A DNA stretch of 64,000 nt from an uncultured Candidatus Saccharibacteria bacterium (GTDB taxonomy: Bacteria; Patescibacteriota; UBA1384; XYA2-FULL-43-10; 1-14-0-10-43-13): positions 19,959-83,958 of the forward strand of contig CAYILA010000003.1 in NCBI GenBank assembly GCA_964364265.1, read 5' to 3'. A program made the translations under genes and the position numbers. Each line of letters starts with the position of its first letter. Within the stretch, counting starts at the first letter, position 1. The notes under the pieces are model-generated. The model was not told the origin of the DNA. It ran no database searches and was given only the letters and a program-made list of their open reading frames with translations. Shown one piece after another: positions 4,810 to 47,782 of the stretch.

Positions 4810-5005
4810 TTAGAATCACCACCTTCCAGATACGCTTATTTGAACAAATACAACTATACCTAAAGATATCATATATGGCAATAGTCGTGCCTATTTGAAA
4901 GCTGTAATTCACGCCAGAATTTGATATCACGCCTACGCAGGCCATTTAACTGATTTGTACATGATAATATTACGTCTCACAATGAATAAATACTATTAAA
5001 AGCTA

Positions 5006-5127: not shown

Positions 5128-5811
5128 ATGACTTTAGGTAATTGGAAGGTCAGGAGTTGGGAAATAGATTTTACTAAAATTGGTAAGGTCTTAAAAAATG
5201 TATCTTTATCAGTCATACTTTTCGCCATGTTGCCCACCTCGTTTGCCCCGATTTCCGGTGTGACTGAGGCCAACACTCAAAAAGGTACATTGCTCAATGT
5301 TAAGTTTGATAGGGCCAATCCGTTAAGTGTTGATACCAAAATTTCAACAATAACGCCGGGTGAATCAAAAATAGAAAAAAATGTTCGTTTAGCCGCTGAA
5401 GCCGAAGCCGCCGCCAGAAACACCGTTTCTCGAGGCACGAGAATTCATGTCGACCCGTCTAACTTTGATGAGATGTATCAAAGGGCCGGTGCGGCTTACG
5501 GTGTCTCCCCCGCTCTTCTGAAGGCCGTCCACATTGTTGAAACCGGAGCTTCCGGTTCGACAAGCAGGGCCAACCCTTCAGGCGCGACTGGTCCTATGCA
5601 GTTCTTGCCTAGTACCTTTAGAGCTTACGGTGTTGATGGTAATGGCGACGGTGTGAAAGACATTTGCAATGTCGAAGACGCTGTTTTCTCCGCCGCCCGA
5701 TACTTGAAGGCCTGTGGATATCCGAATGTCAAGTTAGCTTTGTATGGTTATAACCCATCTTCGCGTTATGTGAATAAGGTTGCCAACCTGGCCTACTCAT
5801 TCGGTATGTAA
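5128..5811 (+). CDS. Secreted lytic transglycosylase (SLT domain) protein
   Basis: Hydrophobic N-terminal segment. SLT-like core GATGPMQFLPSTFRAYGVDGNGDG...AARYL. Confidence 0.75.
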   Translation: MTLGNWKVRSWEIDFTKIGKVLKNVSLSVILFAMLPTSFAPISGVTEANTQKGTLLNVKFDRANPLSVDTKISTITPGESKIEKNVRLAAEAEAAARNTVSRGTRIHVDPSNFDEMYQRAGAAYGVSPALLKAVHIVETGASGSTSRANPSGATGPMQFLPSTFRAYGVDGNGDGVKDICNVEDAVFSAARYLKACGYPNVKLALYGYNPSSRYVNKVANLAYSFGM

Positions 5812-5828
5812 TATGGAAAAAAAGAAAA

Positions 5829-5861
5829 ACCGCCCAGCGATCACATCAAGGGCGGTTTTTT
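5829..5861 (+). terminator. Rho-independent terminator after the SLT gene
   Basis: CCGCCC...GGGCGG stem followed by TTTTTT. Confidence 0.6.
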
Positions 5862-5868
5862 CGTCGCA

Positions 5869-5912
5869 TCAAAAAGCACCGTGTAAGGGGGGTGAACACG
5901 GTGCTTTTTGTC
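5869..5912. terminator. Bidirectional hairpin terminator
   Basis: AAAAAGCACCGTG...CACGGTGCTTTTT. An 8-bp stem with A-run and T-run flanks on both sides. Confidence 0.5.
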
Positions 5913-6034
5913 TAACACACCCTAATACGCAACATTTAAGAAAAAGTTTTGCCGTTTTGACCTATCGTATTTTAATCAATAAAGACCAGAGGCATCAATT
6001 TTTGATGATTCTGGTCTTCCGCCGACACCGGATT

Positions 6035-6442
6035 TTAATGTCGGCGGGGATCCTCCATTCCTATCTTACAGATAAACTTTCGCCCGTTCGTGTGGACATG
6101 ATAGACCACATAACGAATCTCTTGGCACTCCAGAAATATAATTATTTCATGAAGGCCAAGACGATTGAGCAGTCCGTCCGGAATACTGTACGGCCCCTCA
6201 ATAACAGGAGCTTCATCCATATCCCAATCCCAAAGTGTTTTGACCTTGGCAGTCATTCTGGAGTTGTAGGCTGATATACCAGCATGACTTCCATCATTAT
6301 AAACTCTGGCTAGAACCATGGATGTGTCGCCGGCTTGGCTTATGATCCAGACCTCTTTCGGCGCTCTGAATGCTGGTTCGTTGCCTCTTCCCTTTGGCCG
6401 TCCCCGGGGACGGCCGGTTCTTGATGTCGCCAAAGCGATCAC
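6035..6442 (-). CDS. Hypothetical protein with tandem AT-hook-like N-terminus (GRPRGRPKGRG)
   Basis: ORF with no recognisable domain except RGRP AT-hook cores. Locally elevated GC. Stop codon sits inside a 9-bp GC hairpin. Confidence 0.45.
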   Translation of the reverse strand: MIALATSRTGRPRGRPKGRGNEPAFRAPKEVWIISQAGDTSMVLARVYNDGSHAGISAYNSRMTAKVKTLWDWDMDEAPVIEGPYSIPDGLLNRLGLHEIIIFLECQEIRYVVYHVHTNGRKFICKIGMEDPRRH

Positions 6443-6513
6443 CTGTCTTTCTATCGCACCGATGAGAATATTTGATAAATGGCTATTTTGTTTCGGATTG
6501 CGAAAACGACTTA

Positions 6514-12896: not shown

Positions 12897-12933
12897 GTGT
12901 TCGTAATGTGTTCGGTATATCTATTATCGAACA
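12897..12933. promoter_or_regulatory. Candidate SOS/LexA operator: GTTC-N7-GTTC direct repeat overlapping a TGTTCG-N13-CGAACA palindrome
   Basis: Lies 11-47 nt upstream of the lexA ATG. Both motif classes are known LexA-box architectures in other phyla. Confidence 0.3.
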
Positions 12934-13032
12934 AAAACCAAACATCTGTCAATATCTATGTAGCCGTGTGGTTGTGGATAACTTGAAAATATGGTAGAAT
13001 TGGAAAAGGCAAGATGTGAAAATTTAATGTAG

Positions 13033-13082
13033 ACAAAAAAAATAAATATCGGAAGACGATTCGGGAAACTCGATCTTCCGAT
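13033..13082 (-). terminator. Rho-independent terminator downstream of rlmD
   Basis: On the minus strand, ATCGGAAGA...TCTTCCGAT 9-bp stem followed by a T8 run. Confidence 0.55.
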
Positions 13083-13128
13083 ATTAGACAATTCACATCT
13101 TGCAAAGTAATTATCCGGGACCGGCGAT

Positions 13129-14472
13129 TCAGCCGGTCCCATTTCTTTTTAATAGGCCAACACATTCAATGTGGTGGGTTTGCGGGAACATATCGATCGG
13201 CTGGACTTTTTTGAGTCCTATCCCCCTTTTTTCAAATAATACGATATCACGGGCGAATGTAGCTGGATTGCAGGAGACGTAGATTAGACGGTCAAAATCA
13301 ATTTTTGATATTGATTCTATGGTTTCCGGCCTTAATCCCGCCCGCGGCGGATCAATGACAATCACAGAATTGTTAAACCCGCCTACCGGCGAGGCAGGTT
13401 GTTTGATTGTTAAATTGTTGTTCAGATATTTTTCGGAATCCTCCCTTATGAATTCAACATTATGGATATGATTAATCATAGCATTGTCTTTCGCGTCGCG
13501 GACAGCTTCCGGAATAATTTCAACGCCGGTAACATTTTTTGCCATCGGCGATAAATAGATTGCGATCGAACCGGTGCCGCAGTAGAGGTCTAAGACCACA
13601 TCTTTTGGAGTGACGGCAGCGTATTCCTTGATTTTATTATAAAGCGTTTTGACACCGAGCGAATTTGTCTGGAAAAAAGATTCCGGCGAAATTTGAAACA
13701 GAAGCGAACCTATTTTTTCGTAAATAACCGGCGAACCGAATAAAAGATATCGCTTCATATTCGTAAGCGATTTGGCCGGCGCGACAGTATGATAAATTGA
13801 TTTAACGCCGGTAATTTCCTTTATGCAATTAGCAATACCCTCTTTATCTGGCAGGGTTTCGGTGCTGGTGATAATCTCAACCATAAAATCACCGGTTGCT
13901 TTGCCTTCGCGGATTTTTAACTGCCAAAATGATCCCTTATTTTCAACATTTTCATTAATATATTGTTTTAATTTGGGCAAAATCTCATTTGCGGTTACGG
14001 ATTGTAAGAAACATTTATCTACCTCAACCAATCCTTTTTTATAATCGAAGTTTTGGCGGGCGAAGCCGATATCGCCATCCGGTTTATCGATGAAGAAAAA
14101 CCGAATCGAATTGCGGTAAAAGAACGGGTGATTAGATCCGGGTATTATTTTCTCTGATTTTGTATCTATCCTTTGTTTTTTGAGAATTTCAGTAAATATC
14201 TTGCCTTTAAATCTTAGCTGAACGTCGTAAGGGATATTTTGATGCTCGCAGCCGCCGCATTTATCAAAAAATTGACAACGCGGTTTTATCCGAATCGGTG
14301 ATGGATTAATAATCTCCTTGATAATGCCGTTGGCATAATTCTTTTTATCTTTAGTAATATACGCCTCGACTTCATCACCGGGTACTGATTTCTTAACCAA
14401 AACGACCTTGCCGTCTTTTGAACAGCCCAATCCCCAACCTTCGTAAACTAGTTTTTCAATTTTGATTTTCAT
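13129..14472 (-). CDS. 23S rRNA (uracil-C5)-methyltransferase RlmD/RumA family (TRAM + Fe-S + SAM MTase)
   Basis: TRAM N-terminus. 4-Cys cluster C..FDKCGGCEHQ. SAM motif DLYCGTGSIA. Nucleophile VSCNPAT. Confidence 0.85.
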   Translation of the reverse strand: MKIKIEKLVYEGWGLGCSKDGKVVLVKKSVPGDEVEAYITKDKKNYANGIIKEIINPSPIRIKPRCQFFDKCGGCEHQNIPYDVQLRFKGKIFTEILKKQRIDTKSEKIIPGSNHPFFYRNSIRFFFIDKPDGDIGFARQNFDYKKGLVEVDKCFLQSVTANEILPKLKQYINENVENKGSFWQLKIREGKATGDFMVEIITSTETLPDKEGIANCIKEITGVKSIYHTVAPAKSLTNMKRYLLFGSPVIYEKIGSLLFQISPESFFQTNSLGVKTLYNKIKEYAAVTPKDVVLDLYCGTGSIAIYLSPMAKNVTGVEIIPEAVRDAKDNAMINHIHNVEFIREDSEKYLNNNLTIKQPASPVGGFNNSVIVIDPPRAGLRPETIESISKIDFDRLIYVSCNPATFARDIVLFEKRGIGLKKVQPIDMFPQTHHIECVGLLKRNGTG

Positions 14473-28163: not shown

Positions 28164-29525
28164 ATGGGAAAAGAAATACCATCGGAAATATTTAGATCAT
28201 ACGACATTAGAGGATTGTATCCTTTTCAGCTGGATGAAAAACTAGCCTACAGAATCGCTCAAGCTTACGTAAAATATGTTCAACCGGAAGGCAAAATCGT
28301 TGTCGGTTATGATGTTCGAACTTCCTCCCCAAAGCTTCAGGAGTCGGTCATATCGGGTTTAACCGACGCCGGTATCGATGTCGTTAATATCGGGATGGTT
28401 TCAACCGATATGTATTATTTCGCTGCTGGAAACTATAACTATGCTGGCGGAATTATGATTACCGCTTCTCATAATCCGGCTGAATATAACGGTCTTAAGA
28501 TGGTAAGAGAAAATGTTTACCCTCTGTTTGGTGAAGAAGGAATAAATCAAATTAGGGATATGATTTTAAATAACGAAGAGAAAATCAAATCCGAAAATAC
28601 CGGGATAACTGAAAATAAGGATGTATTAAACGACTTCTCTGATTTTGTACAAGGGTTGATTGATGTAGATTCCGTAAAGCCACTAAAAGTTGTAATGAAC
28701 GCGAATTTCGGTTACCAAGCTGTTGTTGCCGACCACATTATTAAAAGAGCAAAACTTCCCATCACTTTAGTGGGTTTAAATGACCAGCCGGATGGAACAT
28801 TTCCGAAAGGAAGGCCTGATCCATATGTCCCAGAAAACAGACCTGAATTTGTTGAGCTTGTTAAATCTGAAAATGCTGATTTTGGCGTTGCTTGGGATGC
28901 GGATGGTGACAGGGTCTTCTTTTGCACCGGCAACGGTGTATTTGTTGACGCATATTATATTAATTCCTTATTGATTAAAGAAATGTTGGCAAAAAGCGAC
29001 GACAAAAATATCATCTATGAACCCCGCTATACCTGGGCAATTATCGATGCAGCAAAAGAAGCCGGTGGAAATGCCATCGCAGAACGCGTCGGCCATTCCT
29101 ATATTAAAGCCAGGATGAAGAAAGAGAACGCAATATTTTGCGGCGAGTCATCGGGGCATACATATTTTAGAGATTTTTGGTACGCCGATGCCGGTATGAT
29201 TCCGTTTATACTAATGCTAGAAATTATTAGTAAATCCGGCAAATCGCTTGATGATCTGATAATGCCGATTATCAACAAATATCCGATTTCCGGAGAGATT
29301 AATTCTACAGTTGACGACAAGGATGCCGTCCTTTCAGAGATTAGAGAGACATATTCTGACGCCGAATTCAATACTCTTGATGGTTTGTCGCTCGAATATC
29401 CTGATTGGCGAGCCAATATCCGTGCTTCTAATACTGAACCTCTATTACGCTTGAATGTCGAGGCCAAGACTAAAGAACTGGTCGAGGATAAGACCCAAGA
29501 GCTCTTAAATATTATCCGTAGTTAA
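28164..29525 (+). CDS. Phosphomannomutase/phosphoglucomutase
   Basis: Active-site TASHNP, metal loop DADGDR, sugar-binding GESSGH. Confidence 0.9.
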   Translation: MGKEIPSEIFRSYDIRGLYPFQLDEKLAYRIAQAYVKYVQPEGKIVVGYDVRTSSPKLQESVISGLTDAGIDVVNIGMVSTDMYYFAAGNYNYAGGIMITASHNPAEYNGLKMVRENVYPLFGEEGINQIRDMILNNEEKIKSENTGITENKDVLNDFSDFVQGLIDVDSVKPLKVVMNANFGYQAVVADHIIKRAKLPITLVGLNDQPDGTFPKGRPDPYVPENRPEFVELVKSENADFGVAWDADGDRVFFCTGNGVFVDAYYINSLLIKEMLAKSDDKNIIYEPRYTWAIIDAAKEAGGNAIAERVGHSYIKARMKKENAIFCGESSGHTYFRDFWYADAGMIPFILMLEIISKSGKSLDDLIMPIINKYPISGEINSTVDDKDAVLSEIRETYSDAEFNTLDGLSLEYPDWRANIRASNTEPLLRLNVEAKTKELVEDKTQELLNIIRS

Positions 29526-29649
29526 GCTGTCCCTCCCCCATTATCTCCTTCTCCTAATCTCAATTAATTAAAAGTACTGATAAGGTATTATAATTAATCA
29601 CCTTTTCTGGACGGCCGTCCAGATTTAGGGATATTAGTTAATATATGTG

Positions 29650-29692
29650 GAATAGAAAAGGCGGAGGATCCCGTGTGGGGAAACTCCGCCTT
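29650..29692 (-). terminator. Terminator hairpin downstream of the LysM-like ORF
   Basis: AAGGCGGAG...CTCCGCCTT 9-bp stem followed by a T-rich run on the minus strand. Confidence 0.5.
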
Positions 29693-29705
29693 CTAAACTT
29701 TGCCG

Positions 29706-30002
29706 CTAGTTTTTTGCTAGTGGCAATTTCACCCGGTCACCCGGGTGAAGCTTCCCCGGGTCAAGCCCGGGGTTTGTCTCTCTGAATACTTCCCGAAGTG
29801 TCCAGAGAGACACTCGATTGTCCTGAAGCAGGCCGGCCCGCTCCAAGAGTCGGTCCTCGCCGTCGCTCGCTTGGACGACGAGGACCACGCGTGGCCGAGC
29901 TAAAAGCTCGGCCTTTACACGAGCCTGGCGGTGTACTGGTGACACCGTCCAGACTGACCAGAGCGCGGCCAGAATGGCCGCGAGGATGAGAAGTTTTTTC
30001 AT
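29706..30002 (-). CDS. Small secreted/membrane-anchored LysM-like protein encoded in a GC-rich islet
   Basis: Start at MKKLLILAAILAALW (signal/TM), preceded by AGGAAGGGAAG SD. C-terminal SLWTLREVFRETNPGLDPGKLHPGDRVKLP fits the LysM consensus (.TLW.IA......NP.L.DP..I.PGQ.L.IP). The ORF track's longer 134-aa version has no upstream SD. Confidence 0.5.
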   Translation of the reverse strand: MKKLLILAAILAALWSVWTVSPVHRQARVKAELLARPRVVLVVQASDGEDRLLERAGLLQDNRVSLWTLREVFRETNPGLDPGKLHPGDRVKLPLAKN

Positions 30003-30493
30003 AACTTCCCTTCCTAGGCGGCCTAGCCGCCGGTCGTGAGCGTTGACCTTTCGGGTCAGCTCGCGCCTGATATTATAAGTTAATAGCAAGCGTGAACTGA
30101 CTCTAAACAACTGGCATTATAGCATAATACTTCGCTTATGTCAATATTAGATTTGCCTATCGGGAAATGCTCGATTCACCAGACTCTTACCTAACAATTA
30201 CGATATCATCTATACCACTTGACTAGGATTACCCCGTCAAAATCTTCTATACAGGCACAATATTGTGTCAAAATTCACGCTGCAGCGTATGTTATGACAC
30301 AAATATACCCAAACTCTGGCGTGAATTCGGGTATATAGTTATTCTTCGAGTGATGCGATGCTGAAATCGGGAAGTATTAATTATTTCTCGATTCCGCCCC
30401 TGGCTCCCCTCGAACAATATAATATTAGGCCTGATTTACTGATTAGCTCCAATCCTTGGTTGGTCGGCCTCGGGCCGAGATTAGCTATCTCTG

Positions 30494-31423
30494 TTATTTT
30501 AAATAAATAATCTCGGTCTCAATCTCTACGCCAAATTTATCTTTGACTGTTTTCTTGGCATACTCGATTAGTTGCAGAACTTCGCTTGATTTGGCGTCTC
30601 CAAGATTAATCAAGAAATTGGGATGCTTTTCGGCAATTTGGGCATTGCCGATTTTTTTGCCTTTCAGTCCGGCTTCACTTAAAAGCAAAGCGACCGGAAC
30701 AACCGAAAAGGGATCGTTTTTGATAAACTCTTTATACTTTTCAGCCAGCTCCGGTGTAACTTTAGAGACCGGTACATTTTTAAAGGTGCTTCCGGCGCTA
30801 GGGTAATTTAAGGGTTGATTGTCAAGGCGGTATCGGATATTTGCTTTAACCTTGGCTTCAATATCGTATTTCTGACCTTTTTTGAAAAAGAAGCCGCAAA
30901 ATAGTATGCATTCGTCTAATTTCTCATTCTTAAAAATACTTCCCCGGTAGGTGAAGGCGCACTCCTCTTTGCTCCTTATTTTTGTTTCCAATGTTTCTAA
31001 ATCCAAACTCTCGACATTTCCTATATTATCCTTTGTCTCTCCGCCAAACGACCCGGCATTACCTCTTACGGCGCCGCCAAGAGATCCCGGCAGGCCGCCG
31101 GCCCATTCAAAGCCAGAGTATTCTTTTTCAATGCAATAATTAATCGCTTTCGAAAACAGCAATCCCGCTCCATATTTTACATTGGGAAAATTATCCGTGA
31201 TCTCGTCGATATCATTATGAAGTATCAGCCCGTCATAACCGCCATCATCTATTAAGAGGTTTGTAACACCGCCGGTTATAAACATTTTGGCAATCCCCTT
31301 TTCCTTTGCTTCTTTCAAACCAGCAATCAATTCATCTTTGTTTTTGAACTTTAGATAATACTTAGCATTGCCGCCGATTTTGTAATAACTTAAATTTTTA
31401 AGAGAAATATTTTCTTCAATCAT
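30494..31423 (-). CDS. murB: UDP-N-acetylenolpyruvoylglucosamine reductase
   Basis: FAD-binding N-terminal YKIGG..ITGGVTNLL and the MurB C-terminal domain. Confidence 0.9.
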   Translation of the reverse strand: MIEENISLKNLSYYKIGGNAKYYLKFKNKDELIAGLKEAKEKGIAKMFITGGVTNLLIDDGGYDGLILHNDIDEITDNFPNVKYGAGLLFSKAINYCIEKEYSGFEWAGGLPGSLGGAVRGNAGSFGGETKDNIGNVESLDLETLETKIRSKEECAFTYRGSIFKNEKLDECILFCGFFFKKGQKYDIEAKVKANIRYRLDNQPLNYPSAGSTFKNVPVSKVTPELAEKYKEFIKNDPFSVVPVALLLSEAGLKGKKIGNAQIAEKHPNFLINLGDAKSSEVLQLIEYAKKTVKDKFGVEIETEIIYLK

Positions 31424-38478: not shown

Positions 38479-39657
38479 TTACCGTGATAACTGTTTGCCG
38501 CAGAGAACCTGGGCTAGCTCGGCAAGCGACCTGCCACGGAGATACCGATCGCTGATCTCCATTGCTGCTGTTGAAGCAGTGATGAAATCAGCTTCTTCTT
38601 GCGAGATTTCTGCGATACAAGCGAGTGCGGAATAGATATCTGTTTCATCTGTGGTGCTCTCGAGAAGTATCGCGAAGTCATTCCGATCTCGCGTAATCCG
38701 ACAGAGCTCCATGAAAAGCGAATCAACGCTCTCTGGATTTGACAGAAGGGCTTCTCGAGCAACTGTGATATCGCTCTGGTCAGCGCTGATTTTGGCGAGT
38801 GCGAGAAGGTTAAAGTACCTTCTGAAATCCGCCGACCATCCCTTTTCAATTTCTTGAACTGGGATAGCCGTTATTTCAGCTCTTGCTCTTGCGATATCCC
38901 GAGGGTCACGAGTAGCTTTGGCGATCTTGAGCCAATGTTCCCACGGCTCGCAATCGAATCTCTCTGCGATAGCGCGAGCTGCCAGGATGTCTTCATTTGC
39001 CTGGCTAAACTCGTAAACAGCGAGGTATTCCGAGAGTTGGTAGCAGGGAACCTTTTCCTTGGCTGCCATTTTCCGCGCTTCATCAATCTTGCCCATCGCC
39101 GCCGTGGCTCGTACGCGTATGACGCGCACCACACCTTGTTTGTATGATTGCCGAACAATCCGATCAGCCAGTTTCCTGACCATGTCGGGTTGTGATGTTT
39201 CGGCTATCGTTTCCAAAACGACGAACATGGCGATCTGGCGCTGCACCTTTTGCTCGTCCTCGTCTACATAATCGTCTTCGTCGCCAGTGGTCTTGGCAGT
39301 AAGCGAGGCAAGTTTCAAAGCGTATCCGAGATCTTTCTTTGCCCACCCCCTTATGATGCTCTGTCGTGCGAACACAGCCTCATCGTGGCCTTCAGGACTG
39401 ATCTTCTCGGCAATTTCCTCCGCAACCGCCAGATCACCCGCCAAGGCAAGCGCCTCGACGATGTCGGCTCGAACCTCATCAGCTTCGCTGGGACTCGGGT
39501 CGGAGCTTCTCGTGAGAACAATCCGGCAACCCAGAAAATCCCCGATAGTGTTCTTCCCCAAATGTTCAGCCCGCTGATGGACGATGTCGCCAACTTGGAG
39601 CATCGCCATCTCGATAAGCTCCTCAAACAACCTCTTCTTCCAAAGCAGTTTGTCCAT
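38479..39657 (-). CDS. Hypothetical alpha-helical repeat protein (HEAT/TPR-like) in a GC-elevated islet
   Basis: 392 aa, Ala/Glu/Arg-rich helical repeats, no catalytic motif. Local GC is clearly above flanks. Both strands are riddled with long overlapping ORFs, the signature of high-GC DNA. Confidence 0.45.
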   Translation of the reverse strand: MDKLLWKKRLFEELIEMAMLQVGDIVHQRAEHLGKNTIGDFLGCRIVLTRSSDPSPSEADEVRADIVEALALAGDLAVAEEIAEKISPEGHDEAVFARQSIIRGWAKKDLGYALKLASLTAKTTGDEDDYVDEDEQKVQRQIAMFVVLETIAETSQPDMVRKLADRIVRQSYKQGVVRVIRVRATAAMGKIDEARKMAAKEKVPCYQLSEYLAVYEFSQANEDILAARAIAERFDCEPWEHWLKIAKATRDPRDIARARAEITAIPVQEIEKGWSADFRRYFNLLALAKISADQSDITVAREALLSNPESVDSLFMELCRITRDRNDFAILLESTTDETDIYSALACIAEISQEEADFITASTAAMEISDRYLRGRSLAELAQVLCGKQLSR

Positions 39658-45214: not shown

Positions 45215-47782
45215 ATGAAAAAGTATGAGTTCTCTCAAATAGATAAAAAGTGGCAGGAATACTGGAAGAGTACTAGTTATGGCGTCGCCAAAGATGAGGG
45301 TGGGAATAAACATTACCATCTAATCGAGTTTCCTTATCCTTCGGGCGAGGGTCTGCATGTCGGTCATTGTATGGGTTATGGGGCATCTGATGCATACTGC
45401 CGGATGAAAAGGATGCAAGGTTTCAATGTAATGTTCCCGATCGGTTGGGACGCTTTTGGTCTTCCGACTGAAAATTACGCTATTAAGACCGGCATCCATC
45501 CCCGCCTTGCCACCAAACAAAGTATTGATACATTTAAGAAACAAATCGAATCCCTAGGCTACTCTTTTGACTGGAAAAGAGAGATAAACACCACCGATCC
45601 GGAATACTATAAATGGACACAATGGATTTTTTTGCAGTTTTACAAACACGGCATTGTAGACCCTTCGACAGGCTCAGGGCAAGCTGGAAAATTGATTGAG
45701 GTCGCCGATGATGATACTACCACCCCTCGCCTTGCCTACCAAGCCGAAATGCCGATTAACTGGTGTCCTTCTTGTAAAATAGGGCTAGCCAATGAAGAAG
45801 TTATCGCCGGAAAATGCGAGCGCTGTGGAACCGAAACAATCAAAAAAATGCAGAAGCAGTGGCTGTTACGTATTACGGCGTATGCAGACCGCTTAATTTC
45901 CGACCTTGATACGGTTGATTATTTAGACAAGATCAAAACTCAACAAGTAAATTGGATCGGGCGATCTACTGGAACAAATATTCGCTTTACTGTCATTCCT
46001 GCGAACGCAGGAATCTTAAAGATCCCTGATCAAGTCAGGGATGACAATATTGTCGAAATTTTTACCACCCGTACCGATACTTTATTCGGTTGTACCTATA
46101 TTGTTTTGTCACCCGAGCATCCAATTATTGCAAAACTAAAAACAAATATTGCCAATTGTAATAAAGTTAATCAATATATTGAAGATTCTGCTAAAAAGTC
46201 CGACATGGAACGAACGGAATTGGCCAAAGAGAAAACCGGAGTCAAACTGGAAAGTATTAAAGCCATAAATCCGATTAACAATGAAGAGATCGATGTTTGG
46301 ATTGCCGATTATGTACTCGCTTCATACGGAACCGGCGCAGTAATGGCAGTTCCCGCTCACGACGAACGAGATTTTGAATTCGCCAAGAAATACGATATTG
46401 ATATTAAGCAAGTTATTACCGGCGATAATTATAATGACAATAAAGCTTTTACGGAATACGGCATATTAATTCATTCGGGTGGATTTGACGGCTTGACAAG
46501 TAAAGAAGCACAAGGGAAAATCACTATAAAACTAAAGGAAATTGGTGCCGGAGATTTTACTGTTAATTACAAACTTCGGGACTGGATTTTCTCCCGCCAG
46601 CATTATTGGGGCGAACCGATCCCAATTATTCATTGTGATAAATGCGGTACAATTCCAATGGATGAAAATGATTTGCCGCTAACTTTGCCGGAAGTGGAAA
46701 ATTACCAGCCAACCGTTACCGGCGAATCACCATTGGCTGCTATTCCAAATTGGGTCAACACAACTTGTCCGGAGTGCGGCGGTCCCGCAAAAAGAGAGAC
46801 CGACACTATGCCGAACTGGGCCGGCTCTAGCTGGTATTTCTTGCGTTACTGCGATCCGAAAAATATGAATGAATTTGCTTCGATGGACAAACTCGAATAT
46901 TGGTTAAATCCTGGTTTAGATGCCAGCGAGGCCCCGCGTAGCTCGAAGAGCGGAGGTGGGGTTGATATCTACAATGGTGGGATGGAACACACAACTTTGC
47001 ATTTGTTATATTCCCGCTTCTGGCACAAGTTTTTGTATGATTTAGGGAAAGTTCCTTCGAACGAGCCGTACCAAAAAAGAATCGCTCATGGTATAATACT
47101 GGGTCCCGACGGACAGAAGATGAGTAAGTCCCGCGACAATGTCATCAATCCGGATAAAATCGTAGAGAAGTACGGTTCCGATACTTTGCGTACCTATATT
47201 ATGTTTATCGGTCCATACGACCAGGAGTCCGCTTGGAACACTTCCAGCATCCAGGGAGTCTACCGCTTCCTCAACCGACTTTGGAATAATTATGATTTAG
47301 TCAATAACCAATCGGATGAAAAAGATCTATTAATTAAATTGAACCAAACCATCGATTGTGTTACCGCGGACTTGGAATCATTTAATTTAAATACGGTCGT
47401 CTCCAAATTGATGGAAATGAATAATATGATTGAAAAAATCGGTCATATATCTAAGGATTCGTATTCTAAATATCTTAAACTTATTTTTCCCGTAGCACCC
47501 CACATCTCATCCGAATTATTTGAAATGTTGGAAAAAGGCAAAATTGAAGCAAAAGAATGGCCTAAAACCGATTTAAATTATCTTTCCGCCGACCAGATTG
47601 AAATAGTCGTCCAAATCAACGGCAAGGTCAGGGCTAAAATGATGCTCGATGCCAATATTTCCGATCAGGAGATGGTTGATTTCGCCCTTAATTTACCCGA
47701 AGTGAAAGAATATATCGAAGACAAGAAGATAGTAAAGATAATCCCAGTCGCCAAGAAACTGGTCAGTATCGTAATCGCTTGA
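45215..47782 (+). CDS. leuS: Leucyl-tRNA synthetase
   Basis: HVGHCMGY (HIGH), KMSKS, and the CP1 editing domain. Start set at the ATG 14 nt after the tRNA; the track's 45140 start overlaps the tRNA. Confidence 0.95.
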   Translation: MKKYEFSQIDKKWQEYWKSTSYGVAKDEGGNKHYHLIEFPYPSGEGLHVGHCMGYGASDAYCRMKRMQGFNVMFPIGWDAFGLPTENYAIKTGIHPRLATKQSIDTFKKQIESLGYSFDWKREINTTDPEYYKWTQWIFLQFYKHGIVDPSTGSGQAGKLIEVADDDTTTPRLAYQAEMPINWCPSCKIGLANEEVIAGKCERCGTETIKKMQKQWLLRITAYADRLISDLDTVDYLDKIKTQQVNWIGRSTGTNIRFTVIPANAGILKIPDQVRDDNIVEIFTTRTDTLFGCTYIVLSPEHPIIAKLKTNIANCNKVNQYIEDSAKKSDMERTELAKEKTGVKLESIKAINPINNEEIDVWIADYVLASYGTGAVMAVPAHDERDFEFAKKYDIDIKQVITGDNYNDNKAFTEYGILIHSGGFDGLTSKEAQGKITIKLKEIGAGDFTVNYKLRDWIFSRQHYWGEPIPIIHCDKCGTIPMDENDLPLTLPEVENYQPTVTGESPLAAIPNWVNTTCPECGGPAKRETDTMPNWAGSSWYFLRYCDPKNMNEFASMDKLEYWLNPGLDASEAPRSSKSGGGVDIYNGGMEHTTLHLLYSRFWHKFLYDLGKVPSNEPYQKRIAHGIILGPDGQKMSKSRDNVINPDKIVEKYGSDTLRTYIMFIGPYDQESAWNTSSIQGVYRFLNRLWNNYDLVNNQSDEKDLLIKLNQTIDCVTADLESFNLNTVVSKLMEMNNMIEKIGHISKDSYSKYLKLIFPVAPHISSELFEMLEKGKIEAKEWPKTDLNYLSADQIEIVVQINGKVRAKMMLDANISDQEMVDFALNLPEVKEYIEDKKIVKIIPVAKKLVSIVIA

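What the first reader, a model, noticed from the sequence alone, without database searches (positions are those of the whole stretch)
30111..30493. About 380 bp ORF-free region packed with nested palindromes next to the GC islet
No ORF of 60 aa or more lies on either strand here. The sequence contains TGTGTCA-N24-TGACACA enclosing the perfect 10-bp palindrome CGCTGCAGCG. It also contains AATTCACGC / GCGTGAATT arms about 45 nt apart, TATACCC-N18-GGGTATA, and TCGGCCtcgGGCCGA. This density of inverted repeats is unusual for a spacer in a compact genome. It suggests a structured ncRNA, a multi-operator regulatory region for the divergent murB cluster, or the non-coding remainder of the adjacent inserted element.
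Basis: seen in the sequence. Interest (0 to 1): 0.5.

Follow-up and report, generated by a model that had tools for sequence, protein, structure and literature searches.

The report
Terminator-plus-promoter spacer beside hairpin-rich gene
The palindrome-rich 380 bp is an ordinary composite spacer: the tail and probable terminator of the murB operon, a stretch the nearest relative lacks, and a perfect promoter driving the neighbouring GC-rich gene, which is the unusual part of the locus.

Summary
Their density is only partly above chance. The excess structure sits in about 90 nt (30255-30345); the rest of the region folds like shuffled sequence.

The region is not upstream of a divergent murB. 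murB (minus strand) ends at 30494 and converges on a PGM/PMM gene that ends at 29525.

Comparison with the only diverged relative found (L022, MurB 74% identical) splits the region into four parts:
- About 157 nt of non-conserved murB trailer.
- A conserved 14-bp RNA hairpin (TATACCC...GGGTATA, 30303-30336) with a U-rich tail, most likely the murB-operon terminator or insulator.
- About 151 nt that carries the TGTGTCA/CGCTGCAGCG palindrome and is absent from L022.
- A perfect TTGACA-17-TGnTATAAT promoter (30144-30116), conserved in L022.

The promoter transcribes the GC islet. The islet is a 98-aa membrane-anchored, LysM-like ORF whose mRNA is a chain of about 14 hairpins (z = -16).

Neither a separate ncRNA nor an operator array is supported. 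The finding itself is ordinary; the neighbouring hairpin-chain gene is the unusual feature.

The parts
30494..31423 (-). murB (UDP-N-acetylenolpyruvoylglucosamine reductase), last gene of a minus-strand cell-envelope operon. Its stop codon abuts the finding region.
   Evidence: Pfam MurB_C E = 2.8e-29 and FAD_binding_4. Synteny murA-like, mreB, two GT4 genes, WecG/TagA, murB.
30337..30493 (-). Non-conserved murB 3' trailer. It contains TCGGCC-tcg-GGCCGA at 30464-30478.
   Evidence: Unalignable with the 56 nt at the same place in L022. Minus-strand fold z = -0.5. No arm->=7 inverted repeat.
30303..30336 (-). It is a 14-bp RNA stem-loop followed by a U-rich tail (UUGUGU in the window; UUUUCGUAU in L022). 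It is the probable intrinsic terminator or insulator of the murB operon.
   Evidence: 92% identical over 36 nt with L022, while both flanks are unalignable. dG = -18.4 and -16.2 kcal/mol, z = -4.75 and -4.5. One compensatory U-A to A-U change and one U.G to U-A change. G.U pairs make the minus-strand fold better than the plus-strand fold.
30152..30302 (-). A lineage-specific segment of about 151 nt, an insertion or deletion relative to L022. At its murB-proximal end is hairpin B (30263-30302), formed by TTGTGTCA...TGACACAA around CGCTGCAGCG. The segment also holds the palindrome CACAATATTGTG (30256-30267) and GCGTGAATT-complement AATTCACGC (30272-30280).
   Evidence: MAFFT gap at columns 44-194. 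BLAST places the break at 30148/30298. No other copy in the window. 30145-30262 folds like shuffled sequence.
30116..30144 (-). Sigma-70 promoter: TTGACA (30144-30139), 17-nt spacer, TGC-TATAAT (-10 hexamer 30121-30116). The predicted start is near 30108.
   Evidence: 12 of 12 hexamer matches plus the TG extension. It is the only 12/12 match in the 64 kb on either strand. Both hexamers, the spacing and the TG are identical in L022, while the spacer sequence differs.
30003..30110 (-). Structured 5' leader of the islet gene. It has a 20-bp 5' hairpin, a GGCGGC/GCCGCC hairpin, and a hairpin that covers the Shine-Dalgarno sequence and the ATG.
   Evidence: Highly conserved with L022; promoter, leader and ORF start are 85% identical over 184 nt. 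One U-A to C-G compensatory change in the SD/ATG hairpin and one U.G to C-G change in the 5' hairpin. Folds.
29706..30002 (-). 98-aa ORF in the GC islet: an N-terminal membrane helix followed by a LysM-like beta-alpha-alpha-beta domain. 72% of its bases are paired in consecutive hairpins.
   Evidence: The frame is conserved without indels over the 53 codons available in L022, at 60% aa identity. It is the only frame open in both sequences. pN/pS = 0.48, against 0.64-1.58 for the other frames. Residues ~70-96 hit LysM repeats. AF2 pLDDT 74.8, and the top Foldseek hits are LysM domains at E = 0.2-1. NCBI annotates it in GCA_038055525.1. Hairpin list.
29643..29699 (-). Terminator-like hairpin of the islet gene: AAGGCGGAG...CUCCGCCUU followed by UUUCUAUU.
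   Evidence: I3; dG = -25.4. Not listed by the simple scan because its loop is longer than 8 nt.
29606..29623 (+). Perfect 18-bp palindrome TCTGGACGG/CCGTCCAGA followed by TTTAGGG. It is a possible terminator of the convergent PGM/PMM gene (28164-29525).
   Evidence: I17; one search identifies the gene.

Best explanation
The 383 bp are a composite spacer on the minus strand between two co-directional transcription units, not a single element. Reading 5' to 3' on the minus strand, there are four parts.

(a) About 157 nt of unconstrained murB trailer.

(b) A conserved RNA hairpin, T (30336-30303), with a U-rich tail. I infer that it ends the murB-operon transcript and shields the next promoter from read-through.

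(c) About 151 nt found only in this lineage. This part carries the conspicuous nested palindrome. It is dispensable, because the nearest relative joins T almost directly to the promoter.

(d) A perfect extended -10 sigma-70 promoter (30144-30116). It fires away from murB into the GC islet.

The islet is a self-contained cassette: promoter, 106-nt structured leader that occludes the ribosome-binding site, 98-aa ORF, terminator. The ORF encodes a membrane-anchored LysM-like protein. Its mRNA is a string of about 14 near-perfect hairpins.

What is shown: the sequence anatomy, the pattern of conservation and loss against L022, the compensatory changes, and the uniqueness of the promoter in the window. 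What is inferred: actual termination at T, the start site near 30108, translation of the ORF, and any function of the hairpin chain.

The extra palindromes in part (c) are most simply by-products of local inverted-copy (template-switch) mutation. The 9-nt AATTCACGC/GCGTGAATT match between the loop of T and hairpin B is an example.
For: Gene order and orientation.

Promoter: 12/12 matches plus TG. It is unique in the 64 kb. It is conserved in L022 with a different spacer sequence.

Hairpin T:
- 92% identical over 36 nt between unalignable flanks.
- z = -4.5 to -4.75 in both species.
- A compensatory U-A to A-U change at the stem base and a U.G to U-A change.
- Better pairing on the murB-sense strand.

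The 151-nt segment is absent from L022. Outside hairpin B it folds no better than shuffles, and it has no copy elsewhere in the window.

Palindrome statistics.

Cassette:
- Fold z = -16; L022 z = -10.
- Hairpins sit at matching positions in both species, some with entirely different arms.
- ORF frame conservation and pN/pS = 0.48.
- LysM-like sequence and fold.
- GC content is 57-58% in both lineages against 36-40% for murB.

The slot between murB and PGM/PMM is variable in relatives. It is 115-200 bp and empty, or holds CHAP and HD genes, or a Y1 transposase.

The template-switch mechanism for making and keeping hairpins is described in PMC8794818.
Against: - Only one diverged homologue exists, and its contig stops inside the ORF. 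All conservation and covariation statements therefore rest on two sequences.
- The U-tract of T is short and interrupted, and the simple terminator scan did not call T in either species.
- T is not found after murB in more distant relatives that lack the cassette. It could therefore belong to the cassette rather than to murB.
- No expression data were available.
- The plus strand of 30345-30493 folds better than chance (z = -3.5), and this is unexplained.
- Whether the 151 nt were inserted here or deleted in L022 cannot be decided.
Confidence: 0.65

Rival explanations
1. Operator array. The palindromes (hairpin B with TGTGTCA...TGACACA, CACAATATTGTG, and T) are DNA binding sites for one or more dimeric regulators that control the strong islet promoter or murB.
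For: TGTGTCA-N24-TGACACA is unique and unexpected by chance. An ACAATAT(AT)ATTGT-type palindrome lies in the promoter spacer of L022, and a similar CACAATATTGTG lies next to a TTGACA in the window.
Against: - Hairpin B and CACAATATTGTG lie about 150-175 nt upstream of the promoter, in a segment that L022 lacks.
- The distance from T to the start site is not kept: about 58 nt in L022 and about 212 nt in the window.
- G.U pairs and compensatory changes in T point to RNA pairing rather than DNA recognition.
- The motif does not recur at other promoters in the window. The one other ACAATATTGT lies inside a long ORF.
- No regulator gene flanks the gap.
- The region is downstream of murB, not upstream.
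Confidence: 0.1
2. An independent structured small RNA is encoded inside 30145-30493. It could be a plus-strand RNA antisense to the murB 3' end, or a processed 3'-UTR RNA of murB.
For: Region z-scores of -3.1 and -4.4. The plus strand of 30345-30493 has z = -3.5. A plus-strand terminator-like hairpin lies at 30630-30651 inside murB.
Against: - No Rfam family matches.
- No promoter-like site on the plus strand, and none on the minus strand other than the islet promoter.
- 30337-30493 is unalignable with L022.
- The plus-strand terminator inside murB is not conserved in L022.
- The structure excess is confined to T and B.
Confidence: 0.05
3. The palindromes are a footprint of a hairpin-dependent mobile element or of mutational palindrome generation. 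Candidates are remnants of a REP/RAYT-type or MITE-like insertion, or products of template-switch mutation. In this reading they have no present function beyond T and the promoter.
For: - The segment shows clean presence or absence of about 151 nt, with ATAT at both junctions.
- The same murB/PMM slot in L026 holds a Y1_Tnp gene flanked by two copies of a GC-rich palindrome.
- The loop of T has a 9-nt inverted copy in B (I22).
- Hairpins in the islet change both arms together and shift register between species, as template switching would give (PMC8794818).
Against: - No terminal inverted repeats and no clear target duplication.
- No second copy in the 64 kb, and none in phage, plasmid or viral collections.
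- No Y1 transposase in the window.
- The hairpins are unrelated to the L026 palindrome.
- The 9-nt match is near chance level.
Confidence: 0.2

Closest known systems
Rho-independent (intrinsic) terminator at the end of an operon
   Same: Hairpin T is a stable stem-loop (dG = -16 to -18 kcal/mol). It lies downstream of the last gene of the operon and is followed by a U-rich stretch. It pairs best on the sense strand and is kept by compensatory change in the relative.
   Different: The stem is AU-rich with only three G-C pairs in a row. The U-tract is short and interrupted. The simple scan did not call it. The loop sequence is also conserved, which terminators do not require.
Consensus sigma-70 promoter with extended -10 (TGn)
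   Same: TTGACA, 17 nt, TGC-TATAAT. The hexamers, spacing and TG are identical in two species whose spacer sequences differ.
   Different: Nothing differs in sequence. Activity in a Patescibacterium is untested.
REP/BIME palindromic units and their RAYT (Y1) transposases
   Same: Palindromes crowd a gap between convergent genes. A relative (L026) has a Y1_Tnp gene flanked by GC-rich palindromes in exactly this slot.
   Different: REPs are repeated families, whereas here every hairpin is different. No second copy was found in the 64 kb, and there is no Y1 gene in the window.
Template-switch (quasipalindrome) mutation that creates and maintains hairpins (PMC8794818)
   Same: The stems are perfect. 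Both arms differ between species, and the hairpin centres shift by 2-5 nt. A local inverted 9-mer copy is present.
   Different: No ancestral reconstruction is possible with two sequences, so the mechanism is inferred and was not tested.
Palindromic elements inside coding genes (Rickettsia palindromic elements; GC clusters of yeast mitochondria). This comparison is from my own knowledge and applies to the neighbouring islet gene.
   Same: GC-rich palindromes lie in an AT-rich compact genome, in frame within an ORF.
   Different: Those elements are multi-copy mobile families inserted at different places. Here the ORF has no indels between species and the hairpins are single-copy.
LysM peptidoglycan-binding domain proteins (for the islet ORF)
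   Same: The C-terminal L-x-PGD-x-V-x-LP motif hits LysM repeats. The predicted topology is beta-alpha-alpha-beta, and the top structural matches are LysM domains. The gene lies in a cell-wall gene neighbourhood.
   Different: Pfam scores are below the gathering cut-off (17.6 bits against 36). Foldseek E-values are 0.2-1. The first half of the domain is shortened. No full-length homologue was found among 5.8 billion proteins.

Membership tests
Intrinsic terminator (hairpin T, 30303-30336) | Stable G+C-containing stem-loop on the sense strand immediately downstream of a gene | tested here: met
   14-bp stem, dG = -18.4 kcal/mol, z = -4.75. The L022 copy has 13 bp and -16.2 kcal/mol. It lies 157 nt (window) or 56 nt (L022) after the murB stop.
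Intrinsic terminator (hairpin T, 30303-30336) | Run of U directly after the stem | tested here: inconclusive
   The tail is UUGUGUCAU in the window and UUUUCGUAUAUU in L022. Both fall below the scan's rule of 5 T in 8, so T was not listed.
Intrinsic terminator (hairpin T, 30303-30336) | Transcript 3' ends map to the U-tract | not testable with these tools
   No RNA data are available.
Sigma-70 promoter | -35 and -10 hexamers with 16-18 nt spacing | tested here: met
   12/12 matches with a 17-nt spacer and the TG extension. Unique in the 64 kb and conserved in L022.
Sigma-70 promoter | Transcription start about 7 nt downstream of the -10 hexamer | not testable with these tools
   No 5'-end data. 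The conserved sequence begins at TTGTTTAGAGTCAG right after the -10 hexamer, which is consistent with such a start.
Known structured RNA family (Rfam) | Covariance-model score at or above the family's gathering score | tested here: not met
   No hit in 29400-30700 at gathering score. The best sub-threshold hits are unrelated families at 13-25 bits.
Transcription-factor operator array | Palindromes positioned at or near the regulated promoter, conserved in relatives, with the motif recurring at other targets | tested here: not met
   Hairpin B and CACAATATTGTG lie in a segment absent from L022. The distance from T to the promoter differs by about 150 nt between species. The motif does not recur at other promoters.
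REP/BIME or MITE repeat family | Multiple related copies in the genome | tested here: not met
   No other copy of the gap or of the 151-nt segment in the 64 kb. The rest of the genome was not available.
REP/BIME or MITE repeat family | Associated Y1 (RAYT) transposase, or terminal inverted repeats with a target-site duplication | tested here: not met
   tblastn with the L026 Y1 protein finds nothing in the window. The 151-nt segment has no terminal inverted repeats; only a 4-nt ATAT is shared at its junctions.
LysM domain protein (islet ORF) | Pfam LysM-family score above the gathering cut-off | tested here: not met
   LysM2_NFP scores 17.6 bits against a cut-off of 36, E = 0.004.
LysM domain protein (islet ORF) | Beta-alpha-alpha-beta fold superposable on solved LysM domains | tested here: inconclusive
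   Single-sequence AF2 model: pLDDT 74.8 for the best model, with the other four at 49-54. Secondary structure is E38-42, H49-55, H66-76, E90-94. 22 of the top 24 Foldseek PDB hits are LysM domains, but E = 0.2-1.8 and TM up to 0.65 on the target.

The most novel reading that the evidence does not exclude
In this reading, the whole 970-bp murB/PMM gap is one conserved cassette with its own insulating hairpin and a maximal-strength promoter. It expresses a protein-coding mRNA built almost entirely of consecutive perfect hairpins.

The positions of those hairpins, but not their sequences, are kept between species. Their high G+C content is held against a 38-41% GC genome. Either selection for an extreme mRNA (or DNA) structure, or continuous template-switch regeneration of palindromes, would then be acting on a coding gene. 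The spacer palindromes would be spill-over of the same process.

The conserved 106-nt leader that hides the ribosome-binding site could also be a new cis-regulator of a cell-wall-binding protein in Patescibacteria.
Probability: 0.3. Interest if true: 0.6.

Novelty: new member of a known kind. Interest (0 to 1): 0.3.

Why it matters
For the finding itself, little. It shows that a visually striking cluster of palindromes resolves into three things: a terminator-like hairpin, a promoter, and sequence the nearest relative does without.

The work has two further uses. First, it corrects the gene geometry: the flanking genes are convergent, not divergent. Second, it points to the neighbouring cassette. 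That cassette has the strongest predicted promoter in 64 kb and drives a small LysM-like gene whose mRNA is a chain of hairpins (z = -16). In the relative the hairpins are kept in position while the arm sequences are replaced.

If that is a selected feature, it is a clean natural case for asking how hairpins arise and are maintained inside coding sequence. It would also show how a cell-wall-binding protein is controlled in an uncultured Patescibacterium.

Tried and rejected
- Rfam at gathering score and at E <= 10, and a tRNA/tmRNA scan: nothing in the gap.
- Repeats of the gap or of the 151-nt segment elsewhere in the window: none above chance.
- blastn (distant mode) of the gap against phages and plasmids: no match.
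- Two conserved leader patterns against viral contigs: no match.
- Short ORFs inside the region (50 and 39 aa): no Pfam hit.
- More homologues:
  - MurB scans of genome and metagenome contigs gave nothing closer than 48%.
  - The protein database gave one relative at 74% (L022); the rest are <=57%.
  - The PMM search gave <=65%.
  - The ORF search gave only itself.
- A formal covariation test was therefore impossible; only pair counts on two sequences were made.
- Remnants of the CHAP, HD or Y1 genes that occupy this slot in relatives: none in the window.
- A plus-strand antisense RNA ending at the terminator-like hairpin inside murB (30630-30651): that hairpin is not conserved in L022.
- A duplicated or older promoter at 30267-30240 (TTGACACAATATTGTG resembles the L022 promoter): there is no usable -10 at 16-18 nt, and the resemblance is too short to decide. 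Left open.
- A type I toxin-antitoxin reading of the islet (structured mRNA plus membrane helix): rejected because the ORF is 98 aa with a LysM-like domain and no antisense promoter was found.

Full report
**Where the region lies.** The window is a Hainich groundwater metagenome contig from a Patescibacterium. MurB relatives are Levybacteria-like at about 50% identity. The finding (30111-30493) lies inside a 968-bp gap (29526-30493) in which the metagenome gene caller called nothing. The gap lies between two convergent genes.
- A PGM/PMM-family mutase at 28164-29525 on the plus strand.
- murB at 30494-31423 on the minus strand.

murB is the last gene of a minus-strand cell-envelope operon: murA-like, mreB, two GT4 glycosyltransferases, WecG/TagA, murB. 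The region is therefore downstream of murB, not upstream of a divergent cluster.

**Check of the observation.** The claimed density is only partly above chance.

| Perfect inverted repeats | Observed | Expected | P |
|---|---|---|---|
| arms >=6 | 5 | 4.3 | 0.45 |
| arms >=7 | 3 | 1.2 | 0.13 |
| arms >=8 | 3 | 0.26 | 0.006 |

All three long repeats lie within 30263-30336. Folding energies tell the same story.

| Stretch | z (minus strand) | z (plus strand) |
|---|---|---|
| 30111-30493 | -4.4 | -3.1 |
| 30255-30345 | -5.65 | -3.67 |
| 30145-30262 | -0.3 | -0.7 |
| 30345-30493 | -0.5 | -3.5 |

The plus-strand value for 30345-30493 is unexplained. The truly aberrant stretch is next door, in the GC islet.
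- The islet reaches 62.5% GC against a window mean of 41.5%.
- In the rest of the gap, which includes the islet (29526-30110), there are 22 arm->=6 repeats against 5.6 expected and 9 arm->=8 against 0.37.
- Its minus-strand fold has MFE -256 kcal/mol and z = -16; the plus strand has z = -12.
- It is the top structural outlier of the whole 64 kb after correcting for GC.

**What the anatomy shows.** The only strong promoter match in the gap is on the minus strand: TTGACA (30144-30139), 17 nt, TGC-TATAAT (ending at 30116). It matches 12 of 12 hexamer positions and has the extended -10 TG. It is the only 12/12 match anywhere in the 64 kb on either strand. It points away from murB into the GC islet. 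Downstream of it, in order, come four features.
- A 106-nt leader.
- A Shine-Dalgarno sequence (GGAAGGGA) and ATG at 30002.
- A 98-aa ORF ending at 29706.
- A terminator-like hairpin with a UUUCUAUU tail at 29699-29643.

The transcript would be about 460 nt. It would be 70% paired, in about 14 consecutive near-perfect hairpins.

**Comparative evidence.** Three assemblies of the same population are identical across the gap. A fourth differs by one base, at 30148, and breaks off inside the islet. Scans and protein searches produced only one diverged relative that carries the element: L022, a 1735-bp Logan contig with MurB 74% identical. Alignment with L022 divides the finding region into four parts.

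(a) 30337-30493 is unalignable with the 56 nt that follow murB in L022.

- It folds in both species, with dG -18.4 and -16.2 kcal/mol and z about -4.6.
- It has one compensatory U-A to A-U change at the stem base and one U.G to U-A change.
- It pairs better on the murB-sense strand because of G.U pairs.
- It is followed by a U-rich stretch in both species.

(c) About 151 nt (30152-30302 by MAFFT; 30148-30298 by BLAST) have no counterpart in L022. There, T is separated from the -35 hexamer by about 7 nt. This segment holds the most conspicuous feature of the finding, the TGTGTCA-N24-TGACACA palindrome around CGCTGCAGCG (hairpin B). It also holds CACAATATTGTG and the AATTCACGC half of the 9-nt inverted match to the loop of T.

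(d) The promoter hexamers, their spacing and the TG are identical in L022, while the spacer sequence differs. The sequence from just after the -10 hexamer onward is highly conserved.

I read T as the terminator or insulator of the murB operon. I read part (c) as dispensable lineage-specific sequence and part (d) as the promoter of the next unit. Termination at T and the start near 30108 are inferred, not shown.

**The neighbouring cassette.** The ORF looks real.
- It is in the same frame, without indels, over the 53 codons that L022 covers, at 60% amino-acid identity.
- It is the only one of the six frames open in both sequences.
- Its pN/pS of 0.48 is the lowest of the six frames (0.64-1.58 for the others). 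murB gives 0.21 with saturated pS of 0.75.
- Residues ~70-96 hit LysM repeats. Pfam stays below its cut-off.
- A single-sequence AF2 model gives a membrane helix followed by beta-alpha-alpha-beta.
- 22 of the top 24 PDB fold matches are LysM domains, though at E = 0.2-1.8.
- NCBI annotates the ORF in MAG GCA_038055525.1.
- No other full-length homologue exists among 1.84 billion cluster representatives or 5.8 billion clustered proteins.

The hairpins are also kept.
- L022 folds with z = -10 over 267 nt.
- L022 folds with z = -7 over the 124 nt where the two sequences have diverged most.
- Hairpins 1-4 and 6 share columns with few changes, including a U-A to C-G compensatory change in the hairpin that covers the Shine-Dalgarno sequence and the ATG.
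- Hairpins 5 and 7 have entirely different arms and centres shifted by 2-5 nt, yet are perfect 12-14-bp stems in both species.
- Sense-strand folds are more stable than antisense folds. This points at least partly to RNA-level pairing.
- GC content is 57-58% in both lineages against 36-40% for murB. The composition has therefore been maintained since the two lineages split and does not indicate recent transfer.

I cannot say why a coding mRNA should be a string of hairpins. Two candidates are selection for mRNA stability or translational control, and regeneration of palindromes by template switching (PMC8794818). Neither was tested.

**The slot in other relatives.** The murB/PMM slot varies across relatives.

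| Locus | MurB identity | Content of the slot |
|---|---|---|
| L025 | 54% | 115 bp |
| L023 | 57% | About 200 bp, with a decayed remnant of a CHAP-like gene |
| L024 | 54% | A CHAP/NlpC-P60-like gene and an HD-domain gene |
| L026 | 53% | A Y1_Tnp gene flanked by two copies of GTACACGCCGGGGGTG (RAYT/REP-like) |

The slot is thus a variable accessory site, often for cell-wall-related genes. Hairpin-dependent elements do occur in this clade. However, the window has no Y1 gene and no copy of that palindrome.

**Rival readings.**
- An operator array is unlikely. The palindromes lie far upstream, are largely absent from L022, and do not recur at other promoters. Hairpin T shows RNA-type pairing.
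- An independent ncRNA is unlikely. There is no Rfam match, no promoter and no conservation. The plus-strand terminator-like hairpin inside murB is not conserved.
- A mobile-element or mutational origin of the extra palindromes is compatible with the main reading. It lacks positive evidence: no terminal repeats and no other copies.

**Verdict.** The region is a composite of a probable terminator, dispensable lineage-specific sequence and a perfect promoter, all of them known kinds of feature. The interesting object is the adjacent hairpin-chain gene that the promoter serves. All comparative statements rest on two sequences and on no expression data.

Noticed in passing
window 29640-30110 (minus strand): The GC islet is a promoter-to-terminator cassette. 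Its ~460-nt transcript is about 70% paired in ~14 consecutive near-perfect hairpins (z = -16). It encodes a 98-aa membrane-anchored LysM-like ORF. In L022 the hairpins are kept in position but some have entirely different arms.
   Followed up: partly
window 5812-6513: A second gap of about 700 bp, between a transglycosylase-like gene and enolase. The minus-strand fold of 5700-6320, which spans most of the gap, has z = -8.2. It has four strong terminator-like hairpins and a 135-aa ORF (6035-6442, minus strand) that starts with an AT-hook-like GRPRGRPKGRG. No Rfam hit.
   Followed up: no
L026 4960-5720: In a relative (MurB 53%), the same murB/PMM slot holds a Y1_Tnp (IS200-like) gene. Two copies of the GC-rich palindrome GTACACGCCGGGGGTG, at 4967 and 5691, flank it. 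This is a RAYT/REP-like arrangement in a Patescibacterium.
   Followed up: partly
L024 5957-7681; L023 1031-1232: In L024 the slot holds a CHAP/NlpC-P60-like gene and an HD-domain gene. In L023 the 200-bp slot keeps a decayed remnant of the N-terminus of the CHAP-like gene (53% over 34 aa). The slot therefore turns over accessory cell-wall genes.
   Followed up: partly
window 30630-30651 (plus strand, inside murB): A terminator-like hairpin with a T7 run, antisense to the murB coding sequence. It is not conserved in L022, so it is probably chance.
   Followed up: yes
window 12923-13150 (minus strand): Two tandem strong terminator hairpins followed by a TTGACA-18-GATAAT promoter. This is an example of the usual terminator-then-promoter layout in this genome, and the second most structured spot in the window.
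   Followed up: no
window 38479-39657 (minus strand): A 392-aa ORF with no Pfam domain and locally high GC (up to 58%), next to a sortase gene. It may be a sortase substrate.
   Followed up: no
window 30148; L003 end: The only population variant seen in the gap is an A/G difference 4 nt upstream of the -35 hexamer. One assembly (L003) breaks off at window 29896, inside the hairpin-rich islet.
   Followed up: no
window 46044-46053: A second exact copy of the palindrome ACAATATTGT lies inside a long ORF, within another locally structured stretch (45850-46150).
   Followed up: no
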